Positions 57,429 to 60,943 are shown, counted from the first letter of the stretch. The stretch is DNA of 64,000 nt from a virus (IMGVR_UViG_3300047160_003616:1-64000); one strand, 5' to 3'. Translations and numbers: made by a program. The notes: generated from the letters alone by a model not told the origin.

Positions 57429-58010
57429 CTAGATCTTGTTTCTCCCTTCGATGTGATGGCGCAGCTGCTCGGCCTGCATACGCTGAGCACGCTCCCACGG
57501 GTCCTCCGGGGGAGGCATTCGCTCCTCCGCGGAGACCACCCGTAGCTGCGGCTTGTCGTGGCCCATCACCATGACGTAGGTGGTGTCGGGCCGGAACAAC
57601 AGGTTGCCCCGCAAGTACCCGGCACCGGCCTCGGCGGACTCGATTCCATGCCGGATCAAGTAGGCGTGGGTGAGATGGCGGGTCCTGGTCGGGTGGGTCT
57701 GCTCATGGGCGGGCAGCTCGATCCAGATCACCTCGTGATCCCGATGGGCCTCATCGCAGCGCCGCCGCACTGAGTCGGGCACCTTCTGAGCAAGGAATGA
57801 ACTTCCTCTGCGGCCCACGTCCTGCCACTCACGGGCGGTCATCCAGATGATGGGGCCACGGTCGCGCTCCCTGCGCTCCCAGACCACCCGCAAGGCGGCC
57901 CGAATGGCACGTGCCTCCTCCGCGGCGGCTCGGGCCCCGTCTTCCTCGGAGGCCGATCCCTCCCCGTGGGTGTGCGAGCGGATGAAGTCGTCGTCAGGCG
58001 GCTGAGTCAT
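57429..58010 (-). CDS. Hypothetical protein
   Basis: 193 aa; ATGA overlap with the helicase. Confidence 0.6.
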   Translation of the reverse strand: MTQPPDDDFIRSHTHGEGSASEEDGARAAAEEARAIRAALRVVWERRERDRGPIIWMTAREWQDVGRRGSSFLAQKVPDSVRRRCDEAHRDHEVIWIELPAHEQTHPTRTRHLTHAYLIRHGIESAEAGAGYLRGNLLFRPDTTYVMVMGHDKPQLRVVSAEERMPPPEDPWERAQRMQAEQLRHHIEGRNKI

Positions 58011-59860
58011 AGCAATCGGTTTCCGAAAATCAACCAGGGAATGTTGTCCTGCTCAGACCGTAGCGCCCGCTCCCGACGATCCCCGTAGCTCAGCAGCTCC
58101 TCGGTGCCCTGAGTGACAGCGGAGATCACCCGGCGGTCCTGCTGGATATTCCAGACGCGCTCCTCCACCGAGTCTTCTGTCACAAATACATAGTTTGTCA
58201 AACCATCCAGATGGCTGTCGGCCCGGTCGATCCGGGAGGCCCGTTGCATGGCGTCATCGAAGGAATATGGCGGCTCATACTGTACGACGTAGCGGGCGCA
58301 CTGCAGGTTGAGCCCATGGCTCCCGGCATCGGAGGTCAGGAAACAGGTCACGTCCGGGTCGGTCATGAACCGCTCCTTGGCGGCCTGGCTGTCCCTATCG
58401 GACTGACCCACGCCATAGTGCACCACGTGTGGCACCTCGATGTGCGGGGCGATCAGATGCAGGGTCAGGTTGGTCCACTTGGTGAAGACGGCCACCTTGT
58501 CGCCGGATTCCCGGATGGATTCCAGCATCTCGTTGAGCTTGGTCAGCTTGGTCGAGGAGGCGTCGGCGATCAGATGCCCATAGTCGGCCAACAGTTCCTG
58601 GCCCACCTCGTGCTCGGTGTGGCGCAGCGCCTCGGGGGTGTTGCACAGGTAGCGCAGTAGGGCGTAATAGGGCCCCAGGTTCACGCTGCGGCCCCGATTG
58701 TCGCACCAGAGGTTCCAGGCCTTGTCGATGATGATGTCGGCCAGCTCGGCCTCCTCATCGGACGGCTGCACCGGCTCCTTGAGGGTCGCCATGCCGCGGA
58801 AGAACTCGCGCACCCCGGGATCGGTTTTGCGCACCGCCTGGGTGTAGCCCTCCACCCGGTGGCGGATCTCGGTCAGGGCGGGCAGGTCCCACTCGATGAC
58901 GGTGAGCGGAAAGGACCGATGGTTTTTGGTCTCGATGTCCAGCGTCTTGACCTCCGCCGCGTAGCGGCGGAGAAACTCTCGGGTGGTGTCCAGCGGGTTG
59001 GGCCCGCCCGCCAGGCTGAACACGTCCTTGAAGCGCAATGGGTTACCATTGACCACCGACGCGCTCATCGGCCAGACGATGGGCCGACAGATCTTGGTGA
59101 GGCGCTCAAAGGCCCGCCGCGCCTTGTTGGGCAGACTGTTGTTGATGCCGCTGCACACGATGCGGTGACACTCGTCAAAGACGAACAGCACCCGCAGCCC
59201 GTGACAGAGCAGTTCCAGCTCGGCGTAGTCCACCCAGAGCTTCTCGTAGTTGCAGATGTAGGCCTGGTGCTCGGCCGCATAGCCCTTGCGCCGTTTGGCC
59301 TTGGTGCCGTCGTTGATTATTGCGTCCAGCTTGGCGTCGTCGGCGAAGAACCGGCACAGGTCAATCTTGGACTTGGAGACCGTGCAGGCGATCACCAGGT
59401 CGATGCGGTCTTGTTCAAACAGATGGGCCGCTCCCGCGGCCGAGCAGAAACTCTTGCCTGATCCTGTCGCCCAATTGAAAAAGAAATACTCAGATTCCAG
59501 GGCACGATTGAGTGCGAATTGTTGGAACCGATGTAGGTCATATCCCTCGACTTTTAAAGGCAACTGCCAGCGCATCATATTAACGAGAATTTCTTCACAG
59601 GATGGACCAAAGACTGGCTCATAACCGTCTTTACATAATTGATCAATGAAAGAGGGTAAATTGAATAATTCCATCAGCACCAGGTGATGCGAGATCCACT
59701 GATGGTAGTGGTTGAAAAAGTCCTGGCGATCCTGCGGCTGGAACAGCAAAGTGCCAGGGTAGTCGGGACTCTCTTCTACAACAATAAGTTTGTCGAGGTC
59801 GATCTCGCCACGTTCTACCTGGCCCACCAATGAGGTGAGGTCATCAGTGATTGCGTACAT
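58007..59860 (-). CDS. SNF2-like superfamily 2 helicase
   Basis: ATGSGKS, FDECHR, SAS, KVAVFT, GSHGLNLQ, QRASRIDR. Confidence 0.9.
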   Translation of the reverse strand: MYAITDDLTSLVGQVERGEIDLDKLIVVEESPDYPGTLLFQPQDRQDFFNHYHQWISHHLVLMELFNLPSFIDQLCKDGYEPVFGPSCEEILVNMMRWQLPLKVEGYDLHRFQQFALNRALESEYFFFNWATGSGKSFCSAAGAAHLFEQDRIDLVIACTVSKSKIDLCRFFADDAKLDAIINDGTKAKRRKGYAAEHQAYICNYEKLWVDYAELELLCHGLRVLFVFDECHRIVCSGINNSLPNKARRAFERLTKICRPIVWPMSASVVNGNPLRFKDVFSLAGGPNPLDTTREFLRRYAAEVKTLDIETKNHRSFPLTVIEWDLPALTEIRHRVEGYTQAVRKTDPGVREFFRGMATLKEPVQPSDEEAELADIIIDKAWNLWCDNRGRSVNLGPYYALLRYLCNTPEALRHTEHEVGQELLADYGHLIADASSTKLTKLNEMLESIRESGDKVAVFTKWTNLTLHLIAPHIEVPHVVHYGVGQSDRDSQAAKERFMTDPDVTCFLTSDAGSHGLNLQCARYVVQYEPPYSFDDAMQRASRIDRADSHLDGLTNYVFVTEDSVEERVWNIQQDRRVISAVTQGTEELLSYGDRRERALRSEQDNIPWLIFGNRLL

Positions 59861-60359
59861 CACACACCCAGTCAATAGGATTCCCGGCTAAGCCACGCCG
59901 GAAATTGCAGAGCCAACAGGCGGGGACTAAATTCTCTGGATCATTGTTAAGTCTATCTCCATCCAGATGGTCGACATGGATGCCGTCGTTTTGTCCTTCG
60001 CCCCATGTCAATAGCGTGCCGCATTGCCAGTGACACAGATGTAGCCCCGTGCCGATCTTGTCGTAGAGCACAGCTCGGTGTTCACCAAGCTGATGATTGT
60101 CTTGAGCCAGTGGATGCTCCTGTTGGCCGGTCAGAATGCGATATCCTGCGCCGTCGATGAAGAACCCAGTGGCCAGTTGGTTGTCCTTGAGTCGCTTACC
60201 CCGGCGGACCTGTGACATCTGCTCTAGCACCTCGGGTGATCTAACATACCGTCCACTATTCCCCTGTCGATGACCACCGTCCGGGTCGGCCCACTTTGCT
60301 CTCAGCGCAGCCGACATTCGGGCCCGGTATTCGGGGGTGCGCTCATAGCTTCCGGCCAT
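59844..60359 (-). CDS. HNH homing endonuclease with NUMOD3-like N-terminus
   Basis: EHRAVLYDKIG...VDHLDGDRLNNDPENLVPACWLCN; paralog of 37312. Confidence 0.88.
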   Translation of the reverse strand: MAGSYERTPEYRARMSAALRAKWADPDGGHRQGNSGRYVRSPEVLEQMSQVRRGKRLKDNQLATGFFIDGAGYRILTGQQEHPLAQDNHQLGEHRAVLYDKIGTGLHLCHWQCGTLLTWGEGQNDGIHVDHLDGDRLNNDPENLVPACWLCNFRRGLAGNPIDWVCDVRNH

Positions 60360-60374
60360 GTGGAAAATACTACA

Positions 60375-60394
60375 GGGGCCCCCGCAGGGGGCCC
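60375..60394. terminator. GC hairpin downstream of the tRNA-like element
   Basis: GGGCCCCC-GCA-GGGGGCCC; no clear U-tract. Confidence 0.4.
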
Positions 60395-60396
60395 AG

Positions 60397-60463
60397 CGCC
60401 GCGCCCCGGTAACGATCCGGGCTGGTTGAGGGTTAGGGCCTCACCTGTCCCACGACTCGCGGC
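60397..60463 (-). tRNA. Compact tRNA-like element with CUA anticodon (Pyl-like architecture)
   Basis: Acceptor GCCGCGA/GCGCGGC, D arm GTC-GTGG-GAC, anticodon arm TGAGG-CC CTA AC-CCTCA, T arm CCCGG-ATCGTTA-CCGGG; no encoded CCA, and C at position 33. Confidence 0.45.
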
Positions 60464-60522
60464 TGATGGGGGCGGGAGGGTTCGGGCCTCCTGACGGGTA
60501 CAAGTACCCCGCCCCCGGGTCT

Positions 60523-60888
60523 TTATGCCATGGCGAACTCCTTGAGGGCCAAGGGATAACCGGCACACATCCGCTTGGCGAACAGGCTGGGTTCTAACGC
60601 GATGGCGGTGGCCTGATCGCCGATGTCGGGTTCGATGACCAGATGGTGCTTGAGACCCAGCGAGAAGGCCAGTGAGTCGAGCACCATCAACGCGGCCTCG
60701 TCGGGCACGCCGAGGATCACCACGTTGTTGGAGTCGTGGTGCCAGCGCTGAATGAGACCGGGGAATTTCAGGGTGAACTCGATACCTGCGTGCAGCGCCT
60801 GGGCCATGGCCAGACCTGGAGACAGATCAGCCCGAACAGCCACATATAGCTTGTCCGGGCCGGGGGTGACGGGATGTTCTACCTACAT
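60523..60888 (-). CDS. Pth2-like peptidyl-tRNA hydrolase; in-frame TAG at codon 2 if translated from ATG 60888
   Basis: KLYVAVRADLSPGLAMAQALHA...VVILGVPDE...EPDIGDQATAIALEP; the family motif extends upstream of the GTG called in the track. Confidence 0.8.
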
Positions 60889-60908
60889 GCGGCTCAGCCT
60901 ACATTAGA

Positions 60909-60943
60909 ACCGCCCTCGGCGGAATCGAATCACCGAGGGCGGT
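60909..60943 (-). other. 13-bp helix capped by a T-loop (TTCGATT) upstream of pth2
   Basis: ACCGCCCTCGGTG-A TTCGATT C-CGCCGAGGGCGGT. Confidence 0.55.

What the first reader, a model, noticed from the sequence alone, without database searches (positions are those of the whole stretch)
60397..60888. pth2 gene with ATG-TAG at its start, followed by an amber-anticodon tRNA-like gene
Seen: in frame with the Pth2 domain the sequence reads ATG TAG GTA GAA CAT CCC GTC ACC CCC GGC CCG GAC AAG CTA TAT GTG (M*VEHPVTPGPDKLYV; TAG at 60883-60885). The track's GTG start would cut off the conserved KLY strand. About 60 nt after the pth2 stop is a compact cloverleaf with a CUA anticodon, short D and variable loops and a non-canonical T loop, resembling tRNA-Pyl geometry. 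Another folded element lies between them (60467-60516). Inference: Pth2 is made only on amber read-through, forming a sensor circuit for suppressor charging or release-factor shortage. No pylS is present in the window.
Basis: partly seen in the sequence, partly recalled or inferred. Interest (0 to 1): 0.75.

Follow-up and report, generated by a model that had tools for sequence, protein, structure and literature searches.

The report
Stop-codon-gated phage tRNA-hydrolase gene
A large actinophage-like virus puts the stop codon UAG directly after the start codon of a small tRNA-hydrolase-like (Pth2) gene and follows it with a stripped-down tRNA look-alike that could read UAG. Lab-grown mycobacteriophages and two groups of giant phages share this pairing, so the enzyme is probably made only when that stop is overridden.

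Summary
ATG (60888-60886) and TAG (60885-60883) lie in frame with a Pfam-significant Pth2 domain. Homology starts upstream of the GTG at 60843.

Three other diverged loci keep RTG-TAG-GTA. They have no start codon between the TAG and the first strand of the fold, and the 13 codons after the TAG evolve as coding sequence.

Two RNAs follow the gene. One is an anticodon-less mini tRNA mimic with 4 compensatory pairs. The other is a 67-nt cloverleaf with CUA in a 7-nt loop, which ARAGORN (default) and Rfam do not call.

The same layout occurs in cluster C mycobacteriophages (Alice, Catera, Phabba, Myrna), where the next tRNA has a CUA-type loop (annotated 'tRNA-suppressor (cta)' in Alice, Arg or Ser in the others). 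Early in-frame TAGs also occur in the Pth2-like genes of XacN1-like and GAP32-like jumbo phages, where ARAGORN finds a tRNA(CUA) in all four scanned and a paper reports two in XacN1. Seven phage records whose Pth2-like gene has no early TAG have none.

TAG is otherwise an ordinary stop here, so this is not genome-wide recoding.

Best reading (0.55): Pth2 synthesis needs amber suppression by the linked RNA. The sensor role is untested, and the tRNA-Pyl resemblance is not supported.

This scan has already reported the same pairing on other DNA. I found no published description.

The parts
60910..60942 (-). G+C-rich hairpin followed by TTCT. Probably the terminator of the preceding gene, marking the 5' border of the unit.
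   Evidence: Direct reading. An equivalent hairpin with a T-run precedes the promoter in L014.
60896..60901 (-). -10-like hexamer TAGGCT (TANNNT type), 7 nt before the ATG. The -35 is weak in this window.
   Evidence: Direct reading. L001, L013, L014, Alice, Catera and Phabba have a perfect TTGACA (Myrna has TTGACA one base offset), then 17-19 nt, a TANNNT hexamer and 6-7 nt before the RTG. The tool's E. coli-type scan does not call these sites.
60886..60888 (-). ATG start codon, predicted to lie at or next to the transcript's 5' end (leaderless).
   Evidence: The codon is ATG or GTG in all 8 actinophage loci. An RTG at the 5' end is necessary and sufficient for leaderless initiation in mycobacteria (PMC4633059).
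60883..60885 (-). In-frame TAG at codon 2: the proposed gate.
60523..60882 (-). Pth2-like ORF: 119 codons plus TAA.
   Evidence: Pfam and PHROG matches. PDB profile matches. dN/dS about 0.2, and for the N-terminal 13 codons pN 0.09 against pS 0.5-0.6 versus L013 and L014.
60464..60516 (-). Element 1: an anticodon-less mini tRNA mimic. It has a 7-bp acceptor-like stem, a 5-bp hairpin with a CUUG tetraloop and a 5-bp T-like arm. Its tail is A-UCA here and A-CCA in relatives.
   Evidence: 98.5% of cells paired, 4 compensatory pairs, slid controls 0-1. (covariance model). A weak mascRNA-like Rfam match in L013.
60397..60463 (-). Element 2: a 67-nt non-canonical tRNA-like cloverleaf. CUA sits at 60436-60434 in the loop CCCUAAC, and the discriminator is G at 60397.
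   Evidence: MFE folds. Alignment with L001, L014 and L013. ARAGORN calls it 'Pyl (cta)' only at relaxed thresholds.
60364..60394 (-). Intrinsic terminator (8-bp G+C stem, then a T-run) that closes the unit. The next gene (HNH endonuclease) starts at 60359.

Best explanation
The unit is a self-contained transcription unit made of a promoter, RTG-TAG, a Pth2-like ORF, a mini tRNA mimic, a CUA tRNA-like RNA and a terminator.

Translation starts at the ATG. This is probably leaderless initiation, as is common in Actinomycetota. The ribosome meets UAG at once. Either release factor 1 ends the event after one residue, or a UAG-reading RNA inserts an amino acid and the full 120-residue Pth2-like protein is made.

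The most likely decoder is the CUA RNA encoded about 60 nt after the gene on the same transcript. RNase P/Z-type processing would free it, and the mini tRNA mimic would mark the cut. Protein output then depends both on the promoter and on a matured, charged suppressor. That is a natural AND gate, or feed-forward delay.

What is shown: the architecture, its conservation in frame, coding-type evolution directly after the TAG, and co-occurrence with CUA tRNAs.

What is inferred: the transcription start, processing and charging of the RNA, the amino acid inserted, and the purpose of the gate. The purpose could be coupling, delay, or homeostatic feedback of the hydrolase on the suppressor.
For: 1. 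RTG-TAG-GTA is in frame in the window, L001/L002/L012, L013 and L014, although synonymous divergence is 0.8-1.0.
2. In L001, L013 and L014 the window's GTG position is ATC or GTC. No ATG, GTG or TTG lies between the TAG and strand 1.
3. The 13 codons after the TAG show pN 0.09 against pS 0.53-0.64 (window versus L013/L014), and 0.0 against 0.48 (L013 versus L014).
4. The start codon varies only between ATG and GTG. The codon after the TAG varies only between GTA and GTG, both valine.
5. Alice, Catera, Phabba and Myrna have the same promoter-RTG-TAG layout. The first tRNA after the gene has a UUCUAA-type loop and is annotated 'tRNA-suppressor (cta)' in Alice.
6. There are independent cases with 1-4 sense codons before the TAG: XacN1, Xoo-sp13 and CM1, and GAP32 and XbC2. 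CM1, GAP32 and XbC2 have no start codon after the TAG. ARAGORN finds a tRNA(cta) in Xoo-sp13, CM1, GAP32 and XbC2. XacN1's two CUA tRNAs had no known target (PMC5852040).
7. Control: seven phage records whose Pth2-like gene has no early TAG have no CUA tRNA. Six of these have an ordinary start and one (G003) has an unresolved start. Two of the seven hold 37 and 44 tRNAs.
8. Pth2 is the only RTG-TAG coding ORF in G000 and in the complete relative G002. TAG ends ordinary genes there.
9. G000 and G002 have no other tRNA.
Against: - Nothing is experimental.
- The window's CUA RNA is not called by ARAGORN at default settings or by Rfam. It has C instead of U at position 33, a 3-bp D stem, no T-psi-C loop and no encoded CCA. 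Its fold energy is no better than shuffles.
- L013's version places CUA two bases off and closes the loop with an A.C mismatch.
- TAG ends 14-17% of confidently coding ORFs in G000 and G002, with no nearer back-up stops (median 55 against 42 codons, p 0.56). A strong general suppressor would therefore be costly.
- The transcription start is only predicted, the window's -35 is weak, and the tool's promoter scan finds nothing.
- In the mycobacteriophages the codon after the TAG is GTG, with GAAGG or GGAGG 7 nt upstream. That is a conventional start if transcripts begin further upstream.
- The loop Lys of canonical Pth2 (GKGK) is missing, so the enzyme's activity is uncertain.
Confidence: 0.55

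Rival explanations
1. The TAG must be read through, but the decoder is a host tRNA (near-cognate, low-level natural read-through, favoured at a very early codon). The two downstream RNAs have other jobs: RNase P processing marks that form the mRNA 3' end, or acceptor-end decoys or substrates of the hydrolase.
For: Element 2 fails the tRNA detectors and has C33 and a non-canonical T loop. Element 1 has no anticodon at all and weakly resembles mascRNA, an RNase P processing module. TAG-ending genes show no back-up stops.
Against: In the records checked, an early TAG and a phage CUA tRNA occur together or not at all. CUA is kept in element 2 although its body diverges between L013 and L014 and between Alice and Catera. 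It is the only tRNA-like gene in a complete 127-kb genome.
Confidence: 0.17
2. RTG-TAG is a one-codon 'start-stop' ORF that loads ribosomes. The real protein starts by re-initiation at the adjacent codon (GTG in mycobacteriophages) or at another non-canonical codon.
For: Alice, Catera, Phabba and Myrna have GTG directly after the TAG, with a Shine-Dalgarno-like GAAGG or GGAGG 7 nt upstream. Their annotators call that GTG the start.
Against: The codon is GTA in all 4 window-clade loci, and ACC, AAC or AAT in the jumbo phages. None of these is a known start codon. The upstream RTG/ATG is in frame in every lineage, which re-initiation does not require. The GTA/GTG change is synonymous, as expected for a codon read in elongation.
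Confidence: 0.08
3. The gene starts at GTG 60843 (or is decaying), and the upstream ATG-TAG is an irrelevant remnant.
For: GTG 60843 exists. Gene callers start all close homologues at or after this position.
Against: That position is not a start codon in L001, L013 or L014. It would delete part of strand 1. Purifying selection acts upstream of it. The whole gene has dN/dS of about 0.2.
Confidence: 0.07
4. The CUA RNA acts as an initiator and translation begins at the UAG itself.
For: Engineered initiator tRNAs with CUA can start at UAG (own knowledge; cf. PMC6393288).
Against: Element 2 has G1-C72 and only two G-C pairs next to the loop, so it lacks the initiator hallmarks. This reading does not explain why the preceding codon is always ATG or GTG. 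In the jumbo phages 1-4 sense codons precede the TAG.
Confidence: 0.03

Closest known systems
Cluster C mycobacteriophage (Ceeclamvirinae) tRNA-array Pth2-like gene, e.g. Alice gp150 with 'tRNA-suppressor (cta)'
   Same: The protein is homologous (45-50% identity). The promoter-RTG-TAG layout is the same, CCA-ended tRNA mimics follow the gene, and a tRNA with a CUA-type loop comes next. The PTH2-like gene is reported in about 96% of these arrays (PMC5966550).
   Different: In those phages the codon after the TAG is GTG and is annotated as the start. The suppressor is a detectable tRNA inside an array of 30 or more tRNAs. In the window the codon is GTA, the phage has no other tRNA, and the CUA RNA is strongly reduced. 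The papers I read do not mention the TAG.
Stop-codon-recoded phages with suppressor tRNAs (TAG read as Gln; bioRxiv 10.1101/2021.08.26.457843)
   Same: A phage-encoded CUA tRNA is proposed to let in-frame TAGs be translated, as a means of regulation.
   Different: In those phages many genes carry in-frame TAGs and TAG is not used as a stop. Here exactly one gene carries one TAG, at codon 2, and TAG ends 14-17% of genes.
prfB (RF2) autoregulation through an early in-frame UGA (own knowledge)
   Same: A translation-factor gene carries an early in-frame stop whose decoding outcome sets its own synthesis.
   Different: prfB uses a +1 frameshift and senses its own product. Here the event is in-frame read-through, and any feedback of Pth2 on the suppressor is only a hypothesis.
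Synthetic suppressor-tRNA feed-forward loop (PMC7969014)
   Same: One promoter drives both an amber suppressor tRNA and an amber-interrupted target gene, which gives an AND gate with low leak.
   Different: That circuit is engineered. This would be a natural case, with the tRNA and its target on one transcript.
mascRNA/MALAT1-type tRNA-like 3'-end processing modules; acceptor/T-arm minihelices
   Same: Element 1 has an acceptor stem, a T-like arm and an A-CCA tail, and abuts the next RNA's first base. L013 gives a weak Rfam RF01684 match (21 bits, E 0.03).
   Different: The match is far below the gathering score of 42.5, so homology is not implied. Processing was not tested.
Phage lambda bar minigenes and host Pth (own knowledge)
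   Same: A two- or three-codon ORF that ends in a stop is linked functionally to peptidyl-tRNA hydrolase.
   Different: bar minigenes are free-standing and toxic to pth-defective hosts. Here the mini-ORF is in frame with a phage hydrolase gene.

Membership tests
Pth2 (Pfam PF01981) | Profile match above the curated cut-off | tested here: met
   34.3 bits against a cut-off of 23. A family profile matches solved Pth2 chains 1rlk, 1q7s, 1wn2 and 2zv3 at E 4e-10 to 1e-8.
Pth2 (Pfam PF01981) | N-terminal strand (K-hydrophobic run-R-x-D-L) followed by the AQxxHA helix | tested here: met
   Both are present only if translation starts upstream of GTG 60843.
Pth2 (Pfam PF01981) | Gly/Lys-rich loop (GKGK) with the Lys implicated in catalysis (own knowledge of archaeal Pth2) | tested here: not met
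   The loop is replaced by a shorter S/P-P-G-L loop with a 2-residue gap.
Pth2 (Pfam PF01981) | Hydrolysis of peptidyl- or N-acyl-aminoacyl-tRNA | not testable with these tools
   This needs an enzyme assay.
Canonical elongator tRNA (element 2) | Recognised by ARAGORN at default settings or by Rfam RF00005 | tested here: not met
   It is called only at 60-80% ARAGORN thresholds, among spurious calls. L013's version scores 20.9 bits against the tRNA-Sec model (gathering score 47).
Canonical elongator tRNA (element 2) | Cloverleaf with a 7-nt anticodon loop, U33 and a T-psi-C loop | tested here: inconclusive
   The cloverleaf and the 7-nt loop are the MFE structure. Position 33 is C and the T loop is non-canonical in the window, L001 and L014. 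L013 has a canonical T loop and U33 but no D stem. Three ARAGORN-called phage tRNAs share the same C33 loop.
Canonical elongator tRNA (element 2) | Processing, CCA addition and aminoacylation | not testable with these tools
   No CCA is encoded. The discriminator is G.
tRNA-Pyl / pyrrolysine system | PylS (class II core) and pyl genes available; tRNA without G18-G19 | tested here: not met
   PF01409 is absent from G000 and from the complete G002, although the host is unknown. The D loop keeps GG.
Genome-wide TAG-recoded phage (code 15 type) | In-frame TAGs in many genes; TAG not used as a stop | tested here: not met
   Pth2 is the only coding ORF with an internal TAG. TAG ends 7 of 49 (G000) and 14 of 83 (G002) confident ORFs.
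Leaderless actinobacterial mRNA | Transcript 5' end coincides with ATG or GTG | tested here: inconclusive
   Predicted only. A TANNNT hexamer lies 6-7 nt before the RTG in 8 loci, with a perfect TTGACA -35 in 7 of them. There are no transcription-start data.

The most novel reading that the evidence does not exclude
This is a dedicated two-part translational switch. A minimal, non-canonical CUA tRNA is the only tRNA-like gene of a phage of about 130-150 kb. Its sole target is codon 2 of the leaderless mRNA for a Pth2-like hydrolase on the same transcript. The hydrolase in turn acts on the suppressor or on the CCA-ended mimics, which sets suppression at a low, safe level. The same logic, reused in mycobacteriophages and two jumbo-phage groups, would explain the 'orphan' amber suppressor tRNAs of standard-code phages.
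Probability: 0.2. Interest if true: 0.9.

Novelty: new variant of a known kind. Interest (0 to 1): 0.78.

Why it matters
- It would give a target, and so a reason to exist, to amber suppressor tRNAs carried by phages that use the standard code. The XacN1 authors looked for such a target and found none (PMC5852040).
- It would be a natural example of suppressor-gated, feed-forward gene control.
- It implies that the start of the 'peptidyl tRNA hydrolase' gene may be annotated one or two codons too late in the 206 Mycobacterium phage records that hold a homologue (four inspected), and that the gene is truncated in GAP32-like jumbo phages.
- It points to very reduced tRNA-like RNAs that standard detectors miss but that may still decode.
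- Alice, Bxz1-type and Myrna phages grow on M. smegmatis, so every step can be tested directly.

Tried and rejected
- **Genome-wide TAG recoding: rejected.** A GC3-only screen was confounded by antisense frames. With a GC1>GC2 filter, only stop-then-start junctions and pth2 remain. A second RTG-TAG-GTA candidate in G002 is antisense to a ParB-like gene and has no PHROG match.
- **GTAGGTA as a general regulatory motif containing the TAG: not supported.** The heptamer is enriched in the window (8 against 1.3 expected). It is not enriched in G001/G002 against a reversed control, and the window's own reversed control gives 7 against 9.
- **DNA similarity to known phages:** none.
- **15-mer anticodon-arm scan of IMG/VR:** 32 hits, of which only L042/L047 (the same loci as L001/L002) are relatives.
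- **Junction pattern scan:** noise only.
- **Start-region pattern scan:** only L001/L002.
- **GTDB genome scan:** no relatives.
- **The look-up of encoding contigs:** Their called N-termini all begin at or after the window's GTG position. That fits an upstream stop but is not proof.
- **Early rare codons matching the adjacent A34 tRNAs in ordinary-start homologues:** none found.
- **Back-up stops after TAG-ending genes:** none found.
- **Covariance model of element 1:** gives only weak matches in mycobacteriophages (E 0.006-0.2).
- **Not attempted:** structure prediction.

Full report
**1. What is in the window**

The window is the first 64 kb of a 76.6-kb IMG/VR virus record, estimated 51% complete. 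Its replication genes are closest to Mycobacterium and Gordonia phages: the DnaB helicase is 40-46% identical. G+C is about 64%.

On the - strand, ATG (60888-60886) is followed by TAG (60885-60883) and GTA. The frame then stays open for 119 codons to TAA at 60525-60523.

This frame matches Pfam PTH2 above the curated cut-off, starting at residue 11, and phrog_1866 from residue 7. A family profile aligns the K-L-Y-V-A-V-R-A-D-L stretch with the first strand of solved Pth2 structures. The first canonical start after the TAG is GTG 60843, which would cut into that strand.

**2. Is the start-TAG an accident?**

Protein searches and contig scans gave three further, mutually diverged loci:
- L001, which is the same locus as L002 and L012. 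L002 lies in G002, a complete 127-kb genome with terminal repeats.
- L013.
- L014.

All three read RTG-TAG-GTA in frame with the Pth2 domain. In all three, the window's GTG position is ATC or GTC. No ATG, GTG or TTG lies between the TAG and the conserved strand.

Synonymous divergence between the lineages is 0.8-1.0, and dN/dS is about 0.2. The 13 codons directly after the TAG show few or no amino-acid changes while about half of the synonymous sites differ: pN 0.09 against pS 0.53-0.64, and 0.0 against 0.48 between L013 and L014. That stretch is therefore translated in this frame.

Any ribosome that translates it must either start at a non-start codon or pass the TAG. The codon before the TAG is only ever ATG or GTG. 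The codon after it is only ever GTA or GTG, both valine.

**3. Not a recoded genome**

With a frame-composition filter, pth2 is the only coding ORF with an internal TAG in G000 and G002. TAG ends 14-17% of confident ORFs. One look-alike in G002 is antisense to a ParB-like gene.

**4. The transcription unit**

In L001, L013 and L014, and in the mycobacteriophages below, a TTGACA lies 17-19 nt before a TANNNT hexamer. That hexamer ends 6-7 nt before the RTG. In L014 a terminator-like hairpin precedes the promoter, and a similar hairpin does so in the window.

This places the predicted 5' end at the start codon. In mycobacteria an ATG or GTG at the 5' end is necessary and sufficient for initiation, whereas CTG and TTG fail (PMC4633059).

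The start site is an inference. The window's -35 is weak, and the E. coli-type scan calls nothing. A terminator follows element 2.

**5. The two RNAs**

*Element 1 (60516-60464)* has these parts:
- a 7-bp acceptor-like stem;
- a hairpin capped by a stable tetraloop (CUUG or UUCG);
- a T-like arm;
- an A-CCA tail (A-UCA in the window) that abuts the first base of element 2.

Across four sequences, 98.5% of cells pair and 4 of 17 pairs change on both sides. Only 9 of 500 shuffles reach that number, and slid controls give 0-1. It has no anticodon. Its best Rfam resemblance is a weak match to mascRNA, a tRNA-like RNase P processing module.

*Element 2 (60463-60397)* folds as a small cloverleaf with CUA in a 7-nt loop. 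The acceptor and T stems change in a compensatory way between L013 and the other loci (read). But it has C33, a 3-bp D stem and a non-canonical T loop. Its folding energy is unremarkable. ARAGORN at default settings and Rfam do not call it.

G000 and the complete G002 contain no other tRNA. No PylS-type core is present.

**6. Cultured relatives**

The protein's best matches in GenBank phages are the 'peptidyl tRNA hydrolase' genes of 206 Mycobacterium phage records, at 45-50% identity.
- Alice and Catera read TTGACA, 18 nt, TACCGT, 6 nt, then ATG-TAG-GTG.
- Phabba and Myrna read GTG-TAG-GTG.

Annotators start the gene at the GTG after the TAG.

After the gene come unannotated CCA-ended acceptor/T mimics, which match my element-1 model only weakly. 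Next comes the first tRNA, whose loop contains UUCUAA. It is annotated 'tRNA-suppressor (cta)' in Alice and, in another register, as Arg(tct) in Phabba and as tRNA-Arg in Catera. L013's element 2 shares this loop type.

The tRNA body differs between Alice and Catera, yet the loop and its position are kept. PMC5966550 reports the PTH2-like gene in about 96% of cluster C arrays but does not mention the TAG.

**7. Unrelated phages**

*XacN1-like jumbo phages.* An HD-like/Pth2-like fusion gene begins with a ribosome-binding site followed by ATG-AAG-TAG (XacN1, CM1) or ATG-AAG-AAG-TAG (Xoo-sp13), in frame. CM1 has no start codon after the TAG before conserved residues. Xoo-sp13 and CM1 carry a tRNA(cta). 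The XacN1 paper reports two CUA tRNAs with no identifiable target.

*GAP32 and XbC2 (Mimasvirus).* Three to five sense codons precede the TAG, and N-E-K-T-W plus strand 1 follow it. Annotators truncated the gene. A tRNA(cta) lies 2-3 kb away.

*Control.* Seven phage records whose Pth2-like gene has no early TAG have no CUA tRNA (six with an ordinary start; G003's start is unresolved). One of them is complete with 37 tRNAs, and another holds 44.

Counted as records, the association is perfect. Counted as lineages (4 against about 5), the numbers are small.

**8. Mechanism and its weak points**

The simplest account is that Pth2 synthesis needs UAG decoding at codon 2, and that the linked CUA RNA is the decoder. 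The unit then behaves as an AND gate or delay.

Weak points:
- No experiment supports it.
- The CUA RNA in this clade is degenerate-looking.
- TAG is an ordinary stop with no nearer back-up stops, so suppression must be weak or depend on context. It might be favoured at the very first elongation step.
- The mycobacteriophages have a GTG with a Shine-Dalgarno-like motif that could serve as a normal start on longer transcripts.
- The hydrolase lacks the canonical Lys loop.

**9. Relation to earlier work**

This scan's earlier agents reported amber-gated Pth2 genes with suppressor tRNAs on other DNA. I reached the same reading from my own searches before seeing those notes, and I do not count them as evidence.

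I found no published description. The paper library is limited.

This window adds four things:
- the TAG sits at codon 2 of a probably leaderless mRNA;
- GTA in place of GTG excludes the annotated mycobacteriophage-type start;
- the phage's only tRNA-like genes are the gate's own pair;
- the control set of phages without an early TAG in the gene lacks CUA tRNAs.

Noticed in passing
window 60898-60904 (- strand): A second ATGTAGG lies 16 nt upstream of the real one, out of frame, and overlaps the -10-like hexamer. It is absent from the related loci.
   Followed up: partly
window 3461, 5809, 12366, 27071, 29927, 56785, 60880, 60963: The heptamer GTAGGTA occurs 8 times against 1.3 expected from shuffles. 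Several copies lie in 5' regions of - strand genes. It is not enriched in G001/G002 against a reversed control, and the reversed control in this genome is nearly as frequent.
   Followed up: partly
L003:2994-3030 (G003, complete 192-kb phage): This Pth2-like gene has no canonical in-frame start before strand 1. A ribosome-binding site drives a 5-codon ORF (M-K-Q-S-H-stop, TGA) in another frame that overlaps it. An in-frame ATT lies 3 codons before K-L-Y, and a tRNA-Ile(aat) lies about 500 nt upstream of the gene.
   Followed up: no
L003-L010 (e.g. L004:2707-2966, L009:2740-2893, L008:2453-2530): Ordinary-start Pth2-like genes sit directly after unusual tRNAs. These have A at position 34 (Ile-AAU, Phe-AAA twice, Asp-AUC) or 6- or 8-membered anticodon loops. 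In G007 and G009 the two Phe(aaa) genes are the only tRNAs. No matching early rare codon was found in the hydrolase genes.
   Followed up: partly
L177:1849-1968 and L179:950-1070 (Phabba, Myrna): Between pth and the CUA-type tRNA lie two hairpins of about 34 nt that end in ACCA (acceptor/T minihelices). They flank an anticodon-less tRNA mimic, and each abuts the next. Only part of this is annotated, as 'tRNA-undetermined'.
   Followed up: partly
L178:1209-1280 (Catera), L177:1971-2041 (Phabba): tRNAs annotated Arg (Arg(tct) in Phabba) have a 9-nt loop region containing UUCUAA. Read as a 7-nt loop closed by a mismatch, the anticodon is CUA, as annotated in Alice.
   Followed up: partly
L028:5506-5578, L030:7273-7346, L044:892-964: Three unrelated IMG/VR phages carry ARAGORN-called CUA tRNAs with the same CCCUAAC anticodon loop, that is C rather than U at position 33.
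   Followed up: no
G002 97-123 kb (L172-L174): A series of near-consensus promoters (TTGACA, 17 nt, TATAAT or TAGAAT) is each followed by the same leader of about 20 nt. This looks like an early-gene promoter family.
   Followed up: no
L215:9612-9686 (Stenotrophomonas phage CM1): Besides tRNA(cta), this phage has a tRNA with a UUA anticodon, which would read UAA.
   Followed up: no
L181:560-990 (LR756504, 636-kb uncultured phage): This Pth2-like gene begins ATG-ACA-TAG. I did not check whether the genome is TAG-recoded throughout.
   Followed up: no
window 59844-60359 and 58007-59875 (- strand): An HNH endonuclease gene follows the unit directly, then an SNF2-type helicase gene that overlaps it by 32 nt. 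L001 has an unrelated gene upstream of the unit, so the unit moves as a block.
   Followed up: partly
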